Positions 31,801 through 37,800 are shown, counted from the first letter of the stretch. The stretch: 64,000 nucleotides of DNA from Catajapyx aquilonaris (GCA_000934665.2 KZ538491.1:1-64000); one strand, 5' to 3'. Translations and numbers: made by a program. Notes: generated by a model from the sequence alone, not told the origin.

Positions 31801-34800
31801 GCTTGACTGTATTAGTGTCTGCGGCTGGGATAAGATGGGCTTATGGTAAGGGAGTCTGCCAGTTTATTTTAAGATTTGCTTTGCTGCTTTTGATTAGGAA
31901 TTTAAAAAGAAGAGTGGCACAGGTGTTATGATATTTCATAATCGTCATGGAGTTTCACTTCAGCGTGTGCAGATCCCATTGCATTGAGAAGCTTCCAGAG
32001 ACTAGGGCTTGTAGTGGTATATAATATTCCTGAAACATCCTGAAAGGGTTTAGTTGCTTGGCATTTGTATTGAGAAAATGATGATGTATTGCAATATTCG
32101 ATGGGTCCTGCTGAAATGTGCCCATGTTGATTTGCGCTACTCTGATTCAGCCATTGCGCAATCCATATAATTATTATTTATGCTGTCCTTGAGTTATGTC
32201 AGTTTAGCAGTAGTTACATTTTCTGTTTATTTGCAGAAATGCTACGAGCAAAAACAGTACAAAAATGGACTGAAGTTTGCAAAGCAGATTTTGTCCAATC
32301 CAAAGTTTGGAGAACATGCAGGTAAAGGGGATTTCTCTCTTAACTGTATATTATTATTGCAAGTATTTAGTTGCTTGGCATTTGTATTGAGAAAATGATG
32401 ATGTACTGCACTATTCGATGGGTCCTGCTGAAATGTGCCCATGTTGATTTGCGCTACTCTGATTCAGTCATGAGTAAATTGACTTTGAGGACGTCCAGTA
32501 AACTTATTCTAAGCCATTCAGTAATGCATCTTAATTATTCCCTTTCTCACTATTGACTCCTGTGGAGTTACATTTTGTAATAACCTTTTTTTCTGCAGAA
32601 ACGCTAGCTATGAAAGGTCTGACCCTAAATGGGTTGGGCCGAAAGGATGAAGCATATGAATATGTGCGTCGAGGTCTCCGTAATGACCTCAAATCCCATG
32701 TGTGCTGGCATGTATATGGGCTACTTCAGAGGTCAGACAGAAAGTATGATGAGGCGATCAAATGCTACCGTAACGCACTTAAATGGGATAGAGACAATAT
32801 ACAGATCCTGAGGGACTTGTCCCTTCTACAGATACAAATGAGGGACCTTAGGGGATATAGGGTGAGTTGGTCCTTTCTTGTGCCAAGTGTACTAATCTTG
32901 CAACAAATTTTAACAACATGAATTTCAGGATACAAGGTATCAGCTTTTTATGCTTAGACCAACCCAGAGAGCATCGTGGATTGGCTTTGCCATGGCCTAC
33001 CATTTGCTGGGAGACCATGACATGGCTTTGAAGATCCTAGATGCCTTTAGAAAGACACAAACAGTAAGTCAAATTATGTACATAGCTGTTGGCAACTTGA
33101 TGTCATCCTGAAAAAGTACTCCAGTAATCTGCATATTAATTTCCAAGTACCGTTAATATAAAAGATAGTATGTGGAGTGCATGGGTTAAAGGGAGTACCT
33201 CTAAAGTCTAAAGGGAGTGTGTGTCTTACATATTTTGATATCTCCACTTTTTACTTGTTTCCAGAAAAGTGTGTATGACTATGAGCATAGTGAGTTGCTG
33301 CTGTACCAAAACTTGGTAATACAAGAGTCTGGCAACCTGAAGGGAGCTTTAGCCCATCTTAACCAGTTTGAAGAGGAGATTTGTGATCGTCTGGCAGTCA
33401 TGGAAACGAGAGGTACGTGTGGAAGGGATTTGTGTGAGATATTGGAAATGCTTTGATTATTCATTCCTGGAAATGGATTCATTCCTGTGCCTTATATTGA
33501 CTCACCTTTGTAAAAGTAATATTTTAATCAAAATGTTGAATATGAATTGTACTGCATCAATTTCCCCAGATGTAATGTTTTGTAGGAGTGCAGATTTGAG
33601 TTGATGCTCAAGAACATGTTACGTAGCTATAATTTTGAACGTGCAGTTTTTTCCTCTTGAATTGAAATGATGACTTGACACAATATTCGATGGGTCCTGC
33701 TGAAATGTGCCCGTGTTGATTTGTGGTTGTCTGACTAATTTGGGAAGAATTCGATCACAATTATTTCAGTTAATCTAAATTTTCTAATAATCGACATTTT
33801 TCTTTATCTTTCGAAAGGACGTTTATGTCTTGAGCTTAGCAGAATGAATGAAGCTGCAGCAGTGTACAGAGAACTTCTGAAGAGGAATCCAGAACATGTG
33901 GGCTACTATGCTCAATTAGAAGCCTCTCTGCAGCTTGCAACAGCTGAAGAAAAGGTCAACTTCTACCTGGCTCAGCAAGAACAATTCCCCAGGGCTCAGG
34001 CACCACGCAGGCTGCCCTTAAACATCATCATTGGTGAGTATTCCTCATTTTGGTGACCCAGCTTGTCTTGAATTTTAAGTTCTTGCTTGGCAGATGAGAG
34101 TGGCAAGAAGAATCCATCTGGGTGTGGGGAGGACCGCTTCCGCTCCCTTGTGGACTACTATTTAAGGAGAGGCTTGCATAAGGGTGTCCCACCACTTTTT
34201 GTGGACCTGCGATCCTTGTACAAAGACAAGCTGAAAGTGGAGGTCATCGAAGGGCTTCTCATGCAGTATGTCGAGTGCCTAAGAAAGACTGGGCACTTCA
34301 GTCAAGAAGGTGACCTTTCATTTTTTCATCCAATATGTACACCAATGTTAATTCAAATTATTGCAGGAGTGTGAATTGTAAAATTTGACTTCAAGCACTT
34401 GTGAGACTTTTCTACTATTAATCTATGAAGTGTGTTTGTTGTTGTGAATTGCAAGGGTACCATATTTTCATGCGTAGAATGGCATACCAGTAAAATTAGA
34501 GGTGGATCATATTTTTGAAAATTCCTGCCTGATGGGTGTACAGTTCTATGGCTATACAGACCAAGTTGAAATGGCACAGCTTGAGGAAATCATCATCACT
34601 GAATACTATCTGCACCAGTACCCTGGGGTGTCACTCTTGTTTTATGCTGGCACGCCACTGTGTGTGTGAAAATATGGTAGTTATTTATTTTTTGGCATCA
34701 GCCCTTGAATATGACAAATTTTACAATACATATGAGTACTTAGTGTCTTCAAGTGCCTAATAGTGTTGTCATAATTGTAGGCATGTGAAACTATGATGAT

Positions 34801-37800
34801 GTGACAACGTTCGATGGGTCCTGCTGAAATGTGCCCATGTTGATTTGTCCAAAACTGACCGTGCCCTACTCTCTAAAGCAAATGTGGCTGAATATGTGCC
34901 TTCTCTCTCTATGATGTTACTAGTAACTTGTGCCTTTCTCTTCATATTTAATAGATGCAGATAACCAGTGCCCTCCAGAACCAGCCTCTGCTCTGTTATG
35001 GACGTACTATTATCTGGCCCAGCATTTTGACCACATGGGCGAGACGGAAAAAGCCCTTCACTATATAGACCTGGCCATTGAACACACTCCAACTCTAATT
35101 GAGTTGTTTGTATGCAAGGGGAGAATATACAAGGTAAAGTGACTAGCCTGTGTAATACACTTCTGCAGATTTTTAAACACTGCATCAAGTGACTGGCAGA
35201 AATATTGATGAATTAGGCATATTTCACCCAATTAATGAACCATATATTCTTCCACAGCATGCTGGCAACATAATGGATGCAGCCCGTTGGCTGGATGAGG
35301 CACAGGCTCTGGACACTGCAGATAGATATGTGAACTCAAAGTGCGCCAAATATATGCTGAGGGCAGGACTGGTGCAGGAGGCATGCAACATGTGTGCCAA
35401 GTTCACTCGGGTCAGTAACATGTCATTGCCGTGGCATGGAAGGGGAATTGGGTAGAATTTCATTTTATGCTTTATGGTGTGGACTTGCAGGGTTGGCAAA
35501 AATGTGTCTGGAAAGGGTTGTATGTAATTCTAGTGGGAGTATCAAATTTTAGAGGTGGGACTATAACAGATTTTACTCAGTGATTTCTCAAACAATTACA
35601 CGCCCTACCTGCATGCAATTGAGCAGTGTAAGTGTCACCGTACACATTCAATCAGAATGGCAGCATTTATGGTTGCAATTTGTTTCAAAAAATAACTTTT
35701 GGCCAACCCTCTTTGAAACACATTTTATCAAAAGCAGTTGTGATTAAGTATGAAGTTTTCGATCTCAAAAACCGCAGATGCAGCACAAGAGTACGTTCAA
35801 TTCGAAATTACCTGAAGTAAGTTGTTTGTCACTTGGATGTGTTTATTCTTTTTGTAGTTTATCTCCCTAATTGGTTGTGAATACGTCCTTGCTTTGCAGG
35901 AAGGTGTGTCAGCCATGGAGAACCTGAATGAGATGCAATGCATGTGGTTCCAGACTGAGTGTGCCTTGACTTACCAGCGGGTAGAGAAGTTGGGCGAGTC
36001 TCTCAAGAAATGTCACGAAGTTGACAGGGTATGTGTGTACCTTCAGAAATTTCCAATTATACGAGATCTGATGAAAGAGTTTCAGGGCTTTTATTTTAAG
36101 AAAAAATACTGCACGTAATCAAGTAATGGCAAATTCAATATTTAAAATTGATCCTTTGTGAGTGAATCTAAAAGTTTAGCAGGGCTAGTTGATTTGCAGT
36201 TCTGGTTCTGACTTGGTACATGGCCCTGGTGTTTAGGCATGTCTCATTGACTACCGTATATCATACGTTTTTATATCTAAGGTCATGTGTACAAGTGCTA
36301 TAAGGGTTTTGGTGTTTACAACACTACTGATGTTGCTCCTTGCTCCTTATCCCACAGCATTTTTCTGAGATAATTGATGACCAGTTTGACTTCCACACAT
36401 ACTGCCTGCGCAAAATGACCCTCCGCTCTTATGTGGGACTTCTGAGGCTTGAAGATGTGCTCAGAGCACACCCTTTTTACTTCCGGGCTGCATGCTGTGC
36501 AATCGAAGTTTACCTTCGCCTCTATGATACACCACTCAGAGATGAGTCTGCCAATCAAGAACACAACACTGGTGAGTGTTTGTATGAGTCTTTTTTTGGA
36601 TGCTTGTCTTGTTATTAGTGGTTGGTTGTATTTTCAGAGTTCAAAGTATTTGAATTAGTAAGTGTTAAGTTTAAAATGTATGCAAAGGTAATGCCCAAGT
36701 GTTAATTTTAGTGTGTCACACAATAATTTAAAGTGCAGATTGCTCCTAATAATCATAAATTATATTTTTAAACGACTTTGTCCTATTTAATTTTGGAGGC
36801 GTCGGATATCCCAGATCCATCTTGTGCTAGGCATTTTTAACTTTAAATAGTGGGCACAGAAAGGTAGATAAGAGAAAATGAGTTTCACTGCCATCTAGTC
36901 CCTATAGGAATGACCTTCACAAAAACTGCTTGTGGTACAGCTAGGCCCACACTTGGACACCATCTTTGCTTGAGATTAAGGCAAAATCGCATAAAAGAGG
37001 AGAGGTGTTGAGTCAGTATTGAGAGTACTTACGATAAGCGGAAGATATATAAAAGCTTCTGACTAGTCTTCCGGAACACTAAAGATTAGATTTGGCCTCA
37101 TTTTTTTTATTCACGCCATAATTATGACTTAAGTCCCATTGAATATATATGGCTGTGTTAATCACAAAACTCTCTTATTATAAGCTGTAACCAGGAAAAG
37201 CACTTGCTTTGGTACCATGAGAAAGGAAAAGTCAAACAATTTTTTGGGAATGTGGTACTCCTGCTGCTCTTGAGAGGTTACAAAATAAGTATGCCACATA
37301 TTCACTTGGCCCCAGGTGGTGCCATGGTCTGCTCAATGTAAGTTACTTGTGACTGCAATAAAAGAGGTAATATGTGTACATATGAACTGGCCAAACACAC
37401 ACTATCAGCACTTTAGATATCACAATAATGGGACATGGTTACATGAAAAAAGTGCACTCTGAATGGCTTTATTAGAACAGAAATTTTTATGTTACTGCAT
37501 GTGTGTTGCCATATTACACAGATACTTGCTTACTCCTCTTTATTTAAAATTATGTCATTTAAAAAGGTCCCTTTTGAATTGCTACATAATACATCGACAA
37601 AATTTGTTTGGAAGGAAATTGCCAGAAAATGCTACCTTTCCATGGGCATTGTGTCATGTAGGTCATGATTTGTTGAACCATGTTGTGTGTTGTCAGACTA
37701 CATTTTGGAATGCAAATACGTGCACCCTTTTTTTTGTAGACTGTCTTGCACAACAAATTGTGGTGCGATCAGGCCGACCTCCAGGGCCATTCATGGGAGG

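What the first reader, a model, noticed from the sequence alone, without database searches (positions are those of the whole stretch)
32078..34858. Four-copy intronic box C/D snoRNA family hidden in NAA15, with an invariant D' guide
Seen: a 66-68 nt unit occurs once each in NAA15 introns 1, 2, 5 and 7, on the sense strand, ending 83-136 nt before the acceptor. Each copy has C (ATGATGA), D' (CTGA), C'-like (TGTTGA) and D (CTGA) boxes. The 14 nt before D' (TTCGATGGGTCCTG) are identical in all four, while the segment before box D differs (gcgctact, gtggttgt, gtccaaaa). Known: one-per-intron placement near the 3' splice site and a guide directly upstream of D/D' are hallmarks of C/D 2'-O-methylation guides, often hosted by ribosome-associated genes; NatA is ribosome-bound. 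Inference: selection keeps the D' guide fixed and its target reads 5'-CAGGACCCAUCGAA. From memory this resembles the 5.8S rRNA segment GCAGGACACAUUGAA (one mismatch, one G-U pair), predicting methylation of the A in CAGGA by the +5 rule. I do not recall NAA15 as a described host of such a family.
Basis: partly seen in the sequence, partly recalled or inferred. Interest (0 to 1): 0.8.

Follow-up and report, generated by a model that had tools for sequence, protein, structure and literature searches.

The report
Four-copy intronic snoRNA family in NAA15
Four introns of the NAA15 gene of an unidentified animal each carry one copy of a small RNA gene with the hallmarks of a box C/D snoRNA, an ordinary kind of element whose target could not be found here.

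Summary
Four 66-68 nt units lie on the sense strand at 32078-32145, 32395-32462, 33667-33734 and 34793-34858. They sit in NAA15 introns 1, 2, 5 and 7, ending 91, 136, 83 and 96 nt before acceptors that spliced RNA contigs confirm.

Each unit has an exact C box, D' box and D box, and a C'-like TGTTGA. A 38-nt core (D' guide, D', spacer, C', TTTG) is identical apart from one A>G change. The flanks of copies 1, 3 and 4 are no more alike than random sequence. That pattern indicates selection rather than recent copying.

No further copy exists in the 64 kb on either strand. No Rfam family is matched. No relative turned up in a metagenome scan.

I read these as genuine intron-encoded box C/D snoRNA paralogues, a new member of a known kind.

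The proposed 5.8S target remains untested. No rRNA of this organism or of any eukaryote could be obtained. The recalled 5.8S segment leaves a G·A mismatch two positions from the predicted site. Drosophila 5.8S has only Gm74.

No discrete small RNA was shown. A fifth, unrelated C/D-like unit sits in the last NAA15 intron.

The parts
32078..32145 (+). Copy 1, C box to D box (68 nt), in NAA15 intron 1 (28912-32236). The D box ends 91 nt before the acceptor.
   Evidence: (84.9 bits)
32395..32462 (+). Copy 2 (68 nt), in intron 2 (32322-32598). The D box ends 136 nt before the acceptor. It differs from copy 1 at 2 positions of the post-C spacer.
   Evidence: 83.6 bits
33667..33734 (+). Copy 3 (68 nt), in intron 5 (33413-33817). 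The D box ends 83 nt before the acceptor. It has a 10-bp flanking stem and the only core substitution (A>G in the D'-C' spacer).
   Evidence: 79.8 bits
34793..34858 (+). Copy 4 (66 nt), in intron 7 (34310-34954). The D box ends 96 nt before the acceptor. It has a 6-bp external stem, GGCATG/CGTGCC.
   Evidence: 75.5 bits
32097..32134 (+). The 38-nt conserved core as it lies in copy 1: D' guide TTCGATGGGTCCTG, D' box CTGA, spacer AATGTGCCCA, C'-like TGTTGA, then TTTG. The same core starts at 32414, 33686 and 34810 in the other copies.
   Evidence: pairwise 38/38 (c1-c2, c1-c4) and 37/38 (c1-c3, c3-c4)
32041..32154 (+). A 114-nt block, repeated at 32358-32471 with 95% identity. It carries copy 1 or copy 2 plus 37 nt upstream and 9 nt downstream, so copies 1 and 2 are a recent duplicate or a conversion tract.
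   Evidence: family D2
28855..47700 (+). Host gene NAA15 (NatA auxiliary subunit), about 15 coding exons. ATG at 28855; the last exon runs to the stop near 47700.

Best explanation
These are four paralogous genes for one intron-encoded box C/D small nucleolar RNA. They represent three independent lineages, because copies 1 and 2 are a recent duplicate.

Inferred mechanism, from established knowledge of this RNA class:
1. Each unit is transcribed within NAA15 pre-mRNA.
2. Snu13, Nop58, Nop56 and fibrillarin assemble on the kink-turn formed by the C and D boxes next to a short flanking stem.
3. After splicing and debranching, exonucleases trim the intron back to this particle.
4. The 14 nt directly upstream of box D' pair with a target reading 5'-CAGGACCCAUCGAA-3'. 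Fibrillarin then methylates the 2'-OH of the nucleotide opposite the fifth guide position, the A of CAGGA.

Shown here: the boxes, their spacing, the intron position, and a conservation pattern that points to selection on the D' guide, D', spacer and C'.

Inferred only: that a stable ~70 nt RNA accumulates, that it acts as a methylation guide, and what it targets.

The pre-D segments differ between lineages and are either relaxed or guide other sites.
For: Boxes: 4 of 4 copies have ATGATGA, CTGA, TGTTGA and CTGA at fixed spacing (10-12 / 14 / 10 / 11 nt between the elements).

Conservation: between c1, c3 and c4, the 20-nt flanks share only 4-7 of 20 positions on the 5' side and 2-7 of 20 on the 3' side. 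The post-C spacer shares 5-6 of 10-12 and the pre-D segment 5-7 of 11. The guide is 14/14, D' 4/4, the spacer 9-10/10 and C' 6/6. Constraint therefore sits on the functional parts.

Placement: all four are on the sense strand of NAA15, one per intron, 83-136 nt upstream of acceptors confirmed by spliced RNA contigs.

Flanking stems: 5, 6, 10 and 6 bp, built from unrelated sequences in c1/c2, c3 and c4.

Not a dispersed repeat in what could be searched: there are 4 copies only in 64 kb on both strands, and the next match scores 5.6 bits. The 10 of 10 metagenome matches to the 18-mer lack the unit: 9 are GC-rich (62-70%) contigs and 1 is an AT-rich contig where the match lies in an open reading frame that I read by eye as a bacterial NusA-like gene.

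Rfam: every weak full-length match is a C/D snoRNA family, for example sR11 at 16.3 bits and SNORD14 at 16.1 bits.

A second, unrelated C/D-like unit with an 8-bp stem lies 78 nt before the acceptor of the last NAA15 intron.
Against: No Rfam family reaches its gathering score: 0 matches in the window, and the best weak match is 16 bits against cut-offs of 39-64.

No target was found; rRNA and snRNAs of the organism were not available.

No discrete ~70 nt RNA was shown.

The C' box departs from UGAUGA at one position.

Taken singly, three of the flanking stems are unremarkable (shuffle P 0.33, 0.25 and 0.16); only c3 stands out, at 0.006.

Folding energies are no better than shuffles (z 0.16, 0.08, -1.34, -0.07), though that is usual for this class.

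In every copy's predicted fold, 6 nt of the guide pair with the D'-C' spacer. A plain guide does not need this.
Confidence: 0.7

Rival explanations
1. One reading: the D' guide directs 2'-O-methylation of 5.8S rRNA at the A of CAGGA, in the segment the reader recalled as GCAGGACACAUUGAA.
For: If that recalled segment is right for this species, 12 of 14 positions are Watson-Crick, one is G·U and one is a mismatch. By my own arithmetic (not a tool result), 343 of the 4^14 possible 14-mers are that good or better, so about 0.01 such sites are expected in 7 kb of rRNA. The first ten letters are consistent with a 5.8S-anchored ITS2 primer ending in CTGCAGGACACAT. The 3-term search holding that primer returned 98 papers, and in the 8 listed the primer was the only term present (search listing only).
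Against: It was not tested on this organism's 5.8S. The G·A mismatch is at guide position 7, two positions from the predicted site. That insect primer string continues after CAGGACACAT differently from the recalled string in insects I recall, which would lower the match. Drosophila has a single 5.8S Nm, Gm74, conserved in human, Xenopus and Arabidopsis, and it is not this A (PMC11014333, passages and Table 1 fragment). The two 15-mers of the recalled string did not occur in any of the 8 listed papers.
Confidence: 0.12
2. A box C/D RNA that is not a simple rRNA methylation guide. It could be an orphan, a pre-rRNA spacer-binding or chaperone snoRNA, or one regulated by its own fold. The conserved 38-nt core would act as a hairpin in which the spacer mimics the target and holds the guide.
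For: The D'-C' spacer is as conserved as the guide (9-10 of 10). An inner helix ATGGGT/GCCCAT forms in 4 of 4 copies, and the only core substitution turns U-A into U·G. An outer 5-bp helix between the variable post-C and pre-D segments keeps its register in c1, c3 and c4, with G-C versus A-U at one pair and U·G, C-G and G-C at the next. In one search, 97.7% of 43 cells pair, against 21-56% when partners are slid. Only the native pairing of segments gives 5 bp; the 5 other permutations give 3-4 bp. No Rfam guide family shares the antisense element.
Against: Covariation is statistically weak with three lineages: 83 of 500 shuffles reach the observed score, and the permutation test cannot go below 1 in 6. 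Copy 2 breaks one outer pair. Folding energies are not better than shuffles. A fixed guide directly upstream of D' is what a methylation guide looks like.
Confidence: 0.15
3. Not a functional RNA gene. Either a short repeat or mobile-element fragment that happens to carry C/D-like motifs, or a cis-acting intronic element of NAA15 kept alike by gene conversion.
For: Copies 1 and 2 share a 114-nt block including flanks, so copying or conversion does occur here. No RNA product was demonstrated. Genome-wide distribution could not be checked.
Against: All copies lie on one strand of one gene within 2.8 kb. None is found elsewhere in 64 kb. I saw no A-tail or target-site duplication in the flanks printed. 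The identity boundaries are the same in c1-c3, c1-c4 and c3-c4 and coincide with functional boxes, which conversion tracts would not do. Four exact box sets at snoRNA spacing are unlikely in a splicing element.
Confidence: 0.06

Closest known systems
Intron-encoded multi-copy box C/D snoRNAs, for example U14 in several introns of the hsc70 gene of vertebrates (recalled, not checked here), and Drosophila paralogue sets such as snoRNA:CD3a-d that share one target (PMC11014333, Table 1 fragment seen)
   Same: One unit per intron on the sense strand. C, D', C' and D boxes. Size 66-68 nt. Paralogues keep one antisense element. The host is a housekeeping gene linked to translation.
   Different: NAA15 is a host I found in no paper. 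The guide sequence matches no described family. The target is unknown.
Rfam SNORD14 (RF00016, U14)
   Same: It is the best-scoring eukaryotic family on copy 3 over its full length. Both share ATTCG after the post-C spacer and TGG.TGTCTGA before box D.
   Different: It scores 16.1 bits against a gathering score of 64, with E 0.45 in a 91-nt search. The unit is 68 nt against a 111-position model. The shared letters do not restore U14's 18S-complementary elements. It is not a member.
Archaeal C/D sRNAs sR3 and sR11 (RF01133, RF01150)
   Same: Compact C-guide-D'-C'-guide-D layout with an 11-nt pre-D spacer. These are the only matches in the 3.1-kb search.
   Different: Scores are 13-16 bits against cut-offs of 39-41. 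The resemblance lies in the generic boxes only, and the host is an animal intron.

Membership tests
Box C/D snoRNA (2'-O-methylation guide class) | C box RUGAUGA near the 5' end and D box CUGA near the 3' end | tested here: met
   ATGATGA and CTGA are exact in 4 of 4 copies, 66-68 nt apart end to end
Box C/D snoRNA (2'-O-methylation guide class) | Short stem from sequences flanking C and D (terminal or external stem) | tested here: inconclusive
   Helices of 5, 6, 10 and 6 bp within 16-nt flanks. Shuffle P is 0.33, 0.25, 0.006 and 0.16. A stem is present in all four but is significant only for copy 3.
Box C/D snoRNA (2'-O-methylation guide class) | Internal D' and C' boxes | tested here: met
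   D' is CTGA, exact. C' is TGTTGA, one departure from TGATGA. Both are invariant in 4 of 4 copies.
Box C/D snoRNA (2'-O-methylation guide class) | At least 10 nt directly upstream of D or D' complementary to rRNA or snRNA, with the modified nucleotide opposite the fifth position | not testable with these tools
   The 14-nt element is invariant, but no rRNA or snRNA of this or any eukaryote could be fetched. No complement other than the copies themselves occurs in the window.
Box C/D snoRNA (2'-O-methylation guide class) | Intronic, sense strand, some 60-100 nt upstream of the 3' splice site (the animal rule, recalled) | tested here: met
   Distances are 91, 136, 83 and 96 nt to acceptors fixed by spliced contigs. 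Copy 2 lies somewhat far.
Box C/D snoRNA (2'-O-methylation guide class) | A stable ~70 nt RNA bound by fibrillarin, Nop56, Nop58 and Snu13 | not testable with these tools
   One run was available, as contigs only. Contigs cannot show ends or levels of an RNA.
Any described Rfam snoRNA family | Score at or above the family's gathering cut-off | tested here: not met
   0 matches in 64 kb at gathering scores. The best sub-threshold matches are 16.3, 16.1 and 15.6 bits against 39, 64 and 64.
Dispersed repeat, SINE or snoRNA retrocopy | Many copies in both orientations, outside introns, with an A-tail and target-site duplications | tested here: not met
   Within the window there are 4 copies, all + strand and all in NAA15 introns. 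I saw no A-tail or direct flank repeat. The genome-wide test was not possible.

The most novel reading that the evidence does not exclude
The family is not a plain guide. Its invariant 38-nt core would be a selected hairpin in which the D'-C' spacer imitates the target and holds the antisense element. The variable post-C and pre-D segments would co-vary to keep a second helix. This would be a box C/D RNA with a gated or non-methylating role, perhaps binding a lineage-specific pre-rRNA spacer or expansion-segment site, hosted five-fold (with the unrelated unit in the last intron) by the ribosome-bound NatA subunit gene.
Probability: 0.15. Interest if true: 0.55.

Novelty: new member of a known kind. 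Interest (0 to 1): 0.3.

Why it matters
If confirmed, it adds an undescribed box C/D snoRNA family and a new host gene (NAA15) in a poorly sampled animal lineage. It also predicts one 2'-O-methylated A in a CAGGA context that RiboMeth-seq could test directly. It changes nothing about how such RNAs are understood. Its practical value is for annotation: these introns are not empty, and NAA15 in this species is a multi-snoRNA host. The conserved spacer and the guide-spacer pairing are the only features that go beyond the textbook case.

Tried and rejected
Known families. The Rfam gathering scan of the whole window found 0 matches. Relaxed scans of 3.1 kb and of two single copies gave only sub-threshold generic C/D matches.

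Own genome. None is held, so genome-wide copy number and the organism's rRNA could not be examined.

Relatives elsewhere. The 18-mer scan of metagenome contigs gave 10 matches, none carrying the unit. Earlier notes of this scan gave nothing for this genome, by sequence or for relatives. One unrelated note on an alga snoRNA came up.

Target hunting.
- I had a recalled lead that the guide might pair just 5' of a conserved LSU rRNA motif (AUCGAAAGGGA). A 19-mer built from it gave 1 match in prokaryote genome contigs, inside a 2.4-Mb actinobacterial contig and taken as chance, and 0 in viral contigs.
- A conserved LSU motif found no eukaryotic rDNA in viral contigs.
- The control genomes of the genome search are all prokaryotes.
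- An attempt to see Rfam's 5.8S consensus through a bacterial 23S 5' end was defeated by clan competition.
- The lead stays untested.

Papers.
- Guide and target 14-mers: 0 papers.
- 11-mers: 72 papers. The 30 listed held only the DNA forms, and their titles concern unrelated subjects; I took these as chance primer matches without opening them.
- LSU-lead 13-mers: 0 papers.
- NAA15 + snoRNA + host gene: 0 papers.
- NAA15 + snoRNA: 8 papers, none about a host gene by title or abstract start.
- The Drosophila Nm map supplement (1 file, 940,802 characters) has none of six guide or target 9-mers. It also has none of five rRNA control motifs, so it does not hold plain rRNA sequence and the blank means little.

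Expression. No RNA holder is listed by the look-up of sequencing runs. The one run (X1, kind unrecorded) proved to be cDNA-like, with 5 GT..AG joints. One 247-nt contig of depth 2.1 covers 31950-32159 and beyond, which includes copy 1. Copies 2-4 are without cover. Contigs cannot tell pre-mRNA from processed snoRNA, so I draw no conclusion.

Organism. A conserved exon is 89-95% identical to NAA15 across Bilateria. A variable exon reaches only 55-59% identity, with dragonflies and damselflies best among 6 hits. The lineage stays unidentified.

Membership in U14 was considered and rejected.
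Full report
WHAT IS THERE

The 14-mer TTCGATGGGTCCTG occurs four times without mismatch, always on the + strand. It is the centre of a four-copy direct repeat of about 70 nt. 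Measured from C box to D box, the units are 32078-32145, 32395-32462, 33667-33734 (68 nt each) and 34793-34858 (66 nt).

Each unit reads, in order:
- ATGATGA
- a 10-12 nt spacer
- TTCGATGGGTCCTG
- CTGA
- AATGTGCCC(A/G)
- TGTTGA
- an 11-nt segment beginning TTTG
- CTGA

A sequence-only covariance model built from the four scores them 75.5-84.9 bits. The next best match in the 64 kb, filters off and both strands, scores 5.6 bits. There are therefore no degenerate or antisense copies nearby.

THE HOST GENE

One exon has 2779 protein hits at E<=1e-20, and the named hits among the 120 listed are overwhelmingly NAA15/NAA16, at up to 95% identity. A tick NAA15 (P0006) aligns in order from 28855 to 47478. 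The ATG is at 28855 and the first donor at 28912.

The only public run that holds the stretch (X1) turned out to be cDNA-like. Its contigs carry GT..AG joints for introns 2, 3, 4, 5 and 7, and a loose end that matches exon 1.

Counting from the first coding exon, the copies lie in introns 1, 2, 5 and 7. Their D boxes end 91, 136, 83 and 96 nt before the acceptor.

WHY THIS IS MORE THAN A REPEAT

Copies 1 and 2 share a 114-nt block including flanks at 95% identity, so they count as one lineage.

Between copy 1, copy 3 and copy 4:
- The 20 nt on either side are as alike as random sequence: 4-7 of 20 on the 5' side, 2-7 of 20 on the 3' side.
- The post-C spacer shares 5-6 of 10-12 positions.
- The pre-D segment shares 5-7 of 11.
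- The C box, the 14-nt element, D', the 10-nt spacer, C', TTTG and the D box are identical, apart from one A>G in copy 3.

The duplications are thus old enough for neutral sequence to have randomised. The identity boundaries are the same in all three comparisons and coincide with functional boxes. That is the signature of purifying selection on a box C/D RNA with a used D' guide. A conversion tract or a young insertion would not look like this.

Each copy also has a helix between its own, unrelated, flanks: 5, 6, 10 and 6 bp. Only copy 3's is individually unusual, at P 0.006.

I saw no A-tail or target-site duplication in the printed flanks.

WHAT IT IS NOT

No Rfam family is matched. There are 0 matches at gathering scores in the window. 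In relaxed searches the best scores are 13-16 bits against cut-offs of 37-64, and nearly all belong to C/D families matched through their boxes.

The most suggestive alignment is to SNORD14/U14 on copy 3. It scores 16.1 bits against 64 and does not preserve U14's 18S-complementary elements. Membership is rejected.

The 18-mer found ten metagenome contigs, none carrying the unit.

I found no paper holding the guide or its complement and none that names NAA15 as a snoRNA host. Both rest on search listings only.

THE TARGET

This is the weak point. The perfect target would read CAGGACCCAUCGAA, with the A of CAGGA opposite guide position 5.

No genome is held for the window. I could not obtain any eukaryotic rRNA through the collections.

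- By my own arithmetic, such a near-match is expected about 0.01 times in 7 kb of rRNA, so it is not negligible.
- It rests on a recalled sequence.
- An insect 5.8S-anchored ITS2 primer seen in a search listing supports only the first ten letters.
- The Drosophila map reports a single 5.8S Nm, Gm74, conserved in human, Xenopus and Arabidopsis (PMC11014333; passages and a Table 1 fragment). That is a different nucleotide.

I also had a recalled lead in the large-subunit rRNA, just 5' of a conserved AUCGAAAGGGA motif, where the invariant part of the guide would end exactly at the motif. A 19-mer built on it found one contig, taken as chance, and nothing else. It remains untested.

The target is therefore open. 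It could be rRNA (5.8S or a variable LSU site), a spacer, an snRNA, or nothing.

AN UNEXPECTED FEATURE

The spacer between D' and C' is as conserved as the guide. In every predicted fold, ATGGGT of the guide pairs with GCCCAT of the spacer. The single core substitution changes U-A to U·G.

Outside this, five nucleotides of the variable post-C spacer pair with five of the variable pre-D segment in one register in c1, c3 and c4. One pair is G-C versus A-U, and the next is U·G, C-G and G-C.

On the alignment, 97.7% of 43 cells pair, against 21-56% when partners are slid. Only the native combination of segments gives 5 bp; the five other permutations give 3-4 bp.

Against this:
- 83 of 500 shuffles reach the observed covariation score.
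- Copy 2 breaks one pair.
- Folding energies are ordinary.

With three lineages this is a lead, not a finding. It is the basis of the novel case.

EXPRESSION

No RNA run is listed as such. In X1, one 247-nt contig of depth 2.1 covers part of intron 1 including copy 1. Contigs cannot separate pre-mRNA from a processed snoRNA, so nothing follows from it.

IN PASSING

The last NAA15 intron (47086-47355) holds a fifth, unrelated C/D-like unit at 47219-47277. It has ATGATGA, CTGA and an 8-bp terminal stem (P 0.013), and lies 78 nt before the acceptor. Again there is no Rfam membership. It strengthens the view that NAA15 is a snoRNA host in this species.

VERDICT

- Observation: confirmed.
- Interpretation as an intronic box C/D snoRNA family: well supported by anatomy and by the pattern of constraint (confidence 0.7), but without RNA-level evidence.
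- The 5.8S target: unsupported and untested (0.12).
- Novelty: a new member of a known kind.
- Interest: modest (0.3).

Noticed in passing
window 47219-47277 (+), in the last NAA15 intron 47086-47355: A fifth, unrelated box C/D-like unit: ATGATGA ... CTGA, 59 nt. It has an 8-bp terminal stem AGCTCCTG/TGGGGGCT (shuffle P 0.013), and its D box ends 78 nt before the acceptor. Only weak Rfam matches: SNORD74 15.4 bits against 41, SNORD21 16.2 against 63. Its post-C and pre-D regions are also predicted to pair with each other.
   Followed up: partly
window 32102-32126 and the equivalent positions in the other copies: Six nt of the D' guide (ATGGGT) pair with the D'-C' spacer (GCCCAT) in all four copies, and the only core substitution keeps the pair (U-A to U·G). 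A second 5-bp helix between the variable segments shows paired changes. Statistically weak with three lineages.
   Followed up: partly
window 32041-32154 and 32358-32471: A 114-nt block at 95% identity carries copies 1 and 2 with 37 nt of upstream and 9 nt of downstream flank, but exon 2 between them is not duplicated. This looks like a short ectopic duplication or a conversion between neighbouring introns.
   Followed up: no
window 36574-45848 (NAA15 intron 11, 9.3 kb), especially 39246-41209 on the minus strand: The large intron holds long minus-strand open frames rich in proline, up to 266 aa. This may be a nested gene on the opposite strand. It was not examined.
   Followed up: no
window about 31914-32159: In the cDNA-like run X1, the only listed contig lying wholly within an intron of the 3-kb stretch is a 247-nt piece of depth 2.1. 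It spans copy 1 and stops 14 nt after its D box. Two further pieces were not shown. Contigs cannot show RNA ends, so it is noted only.
   Followed up: no
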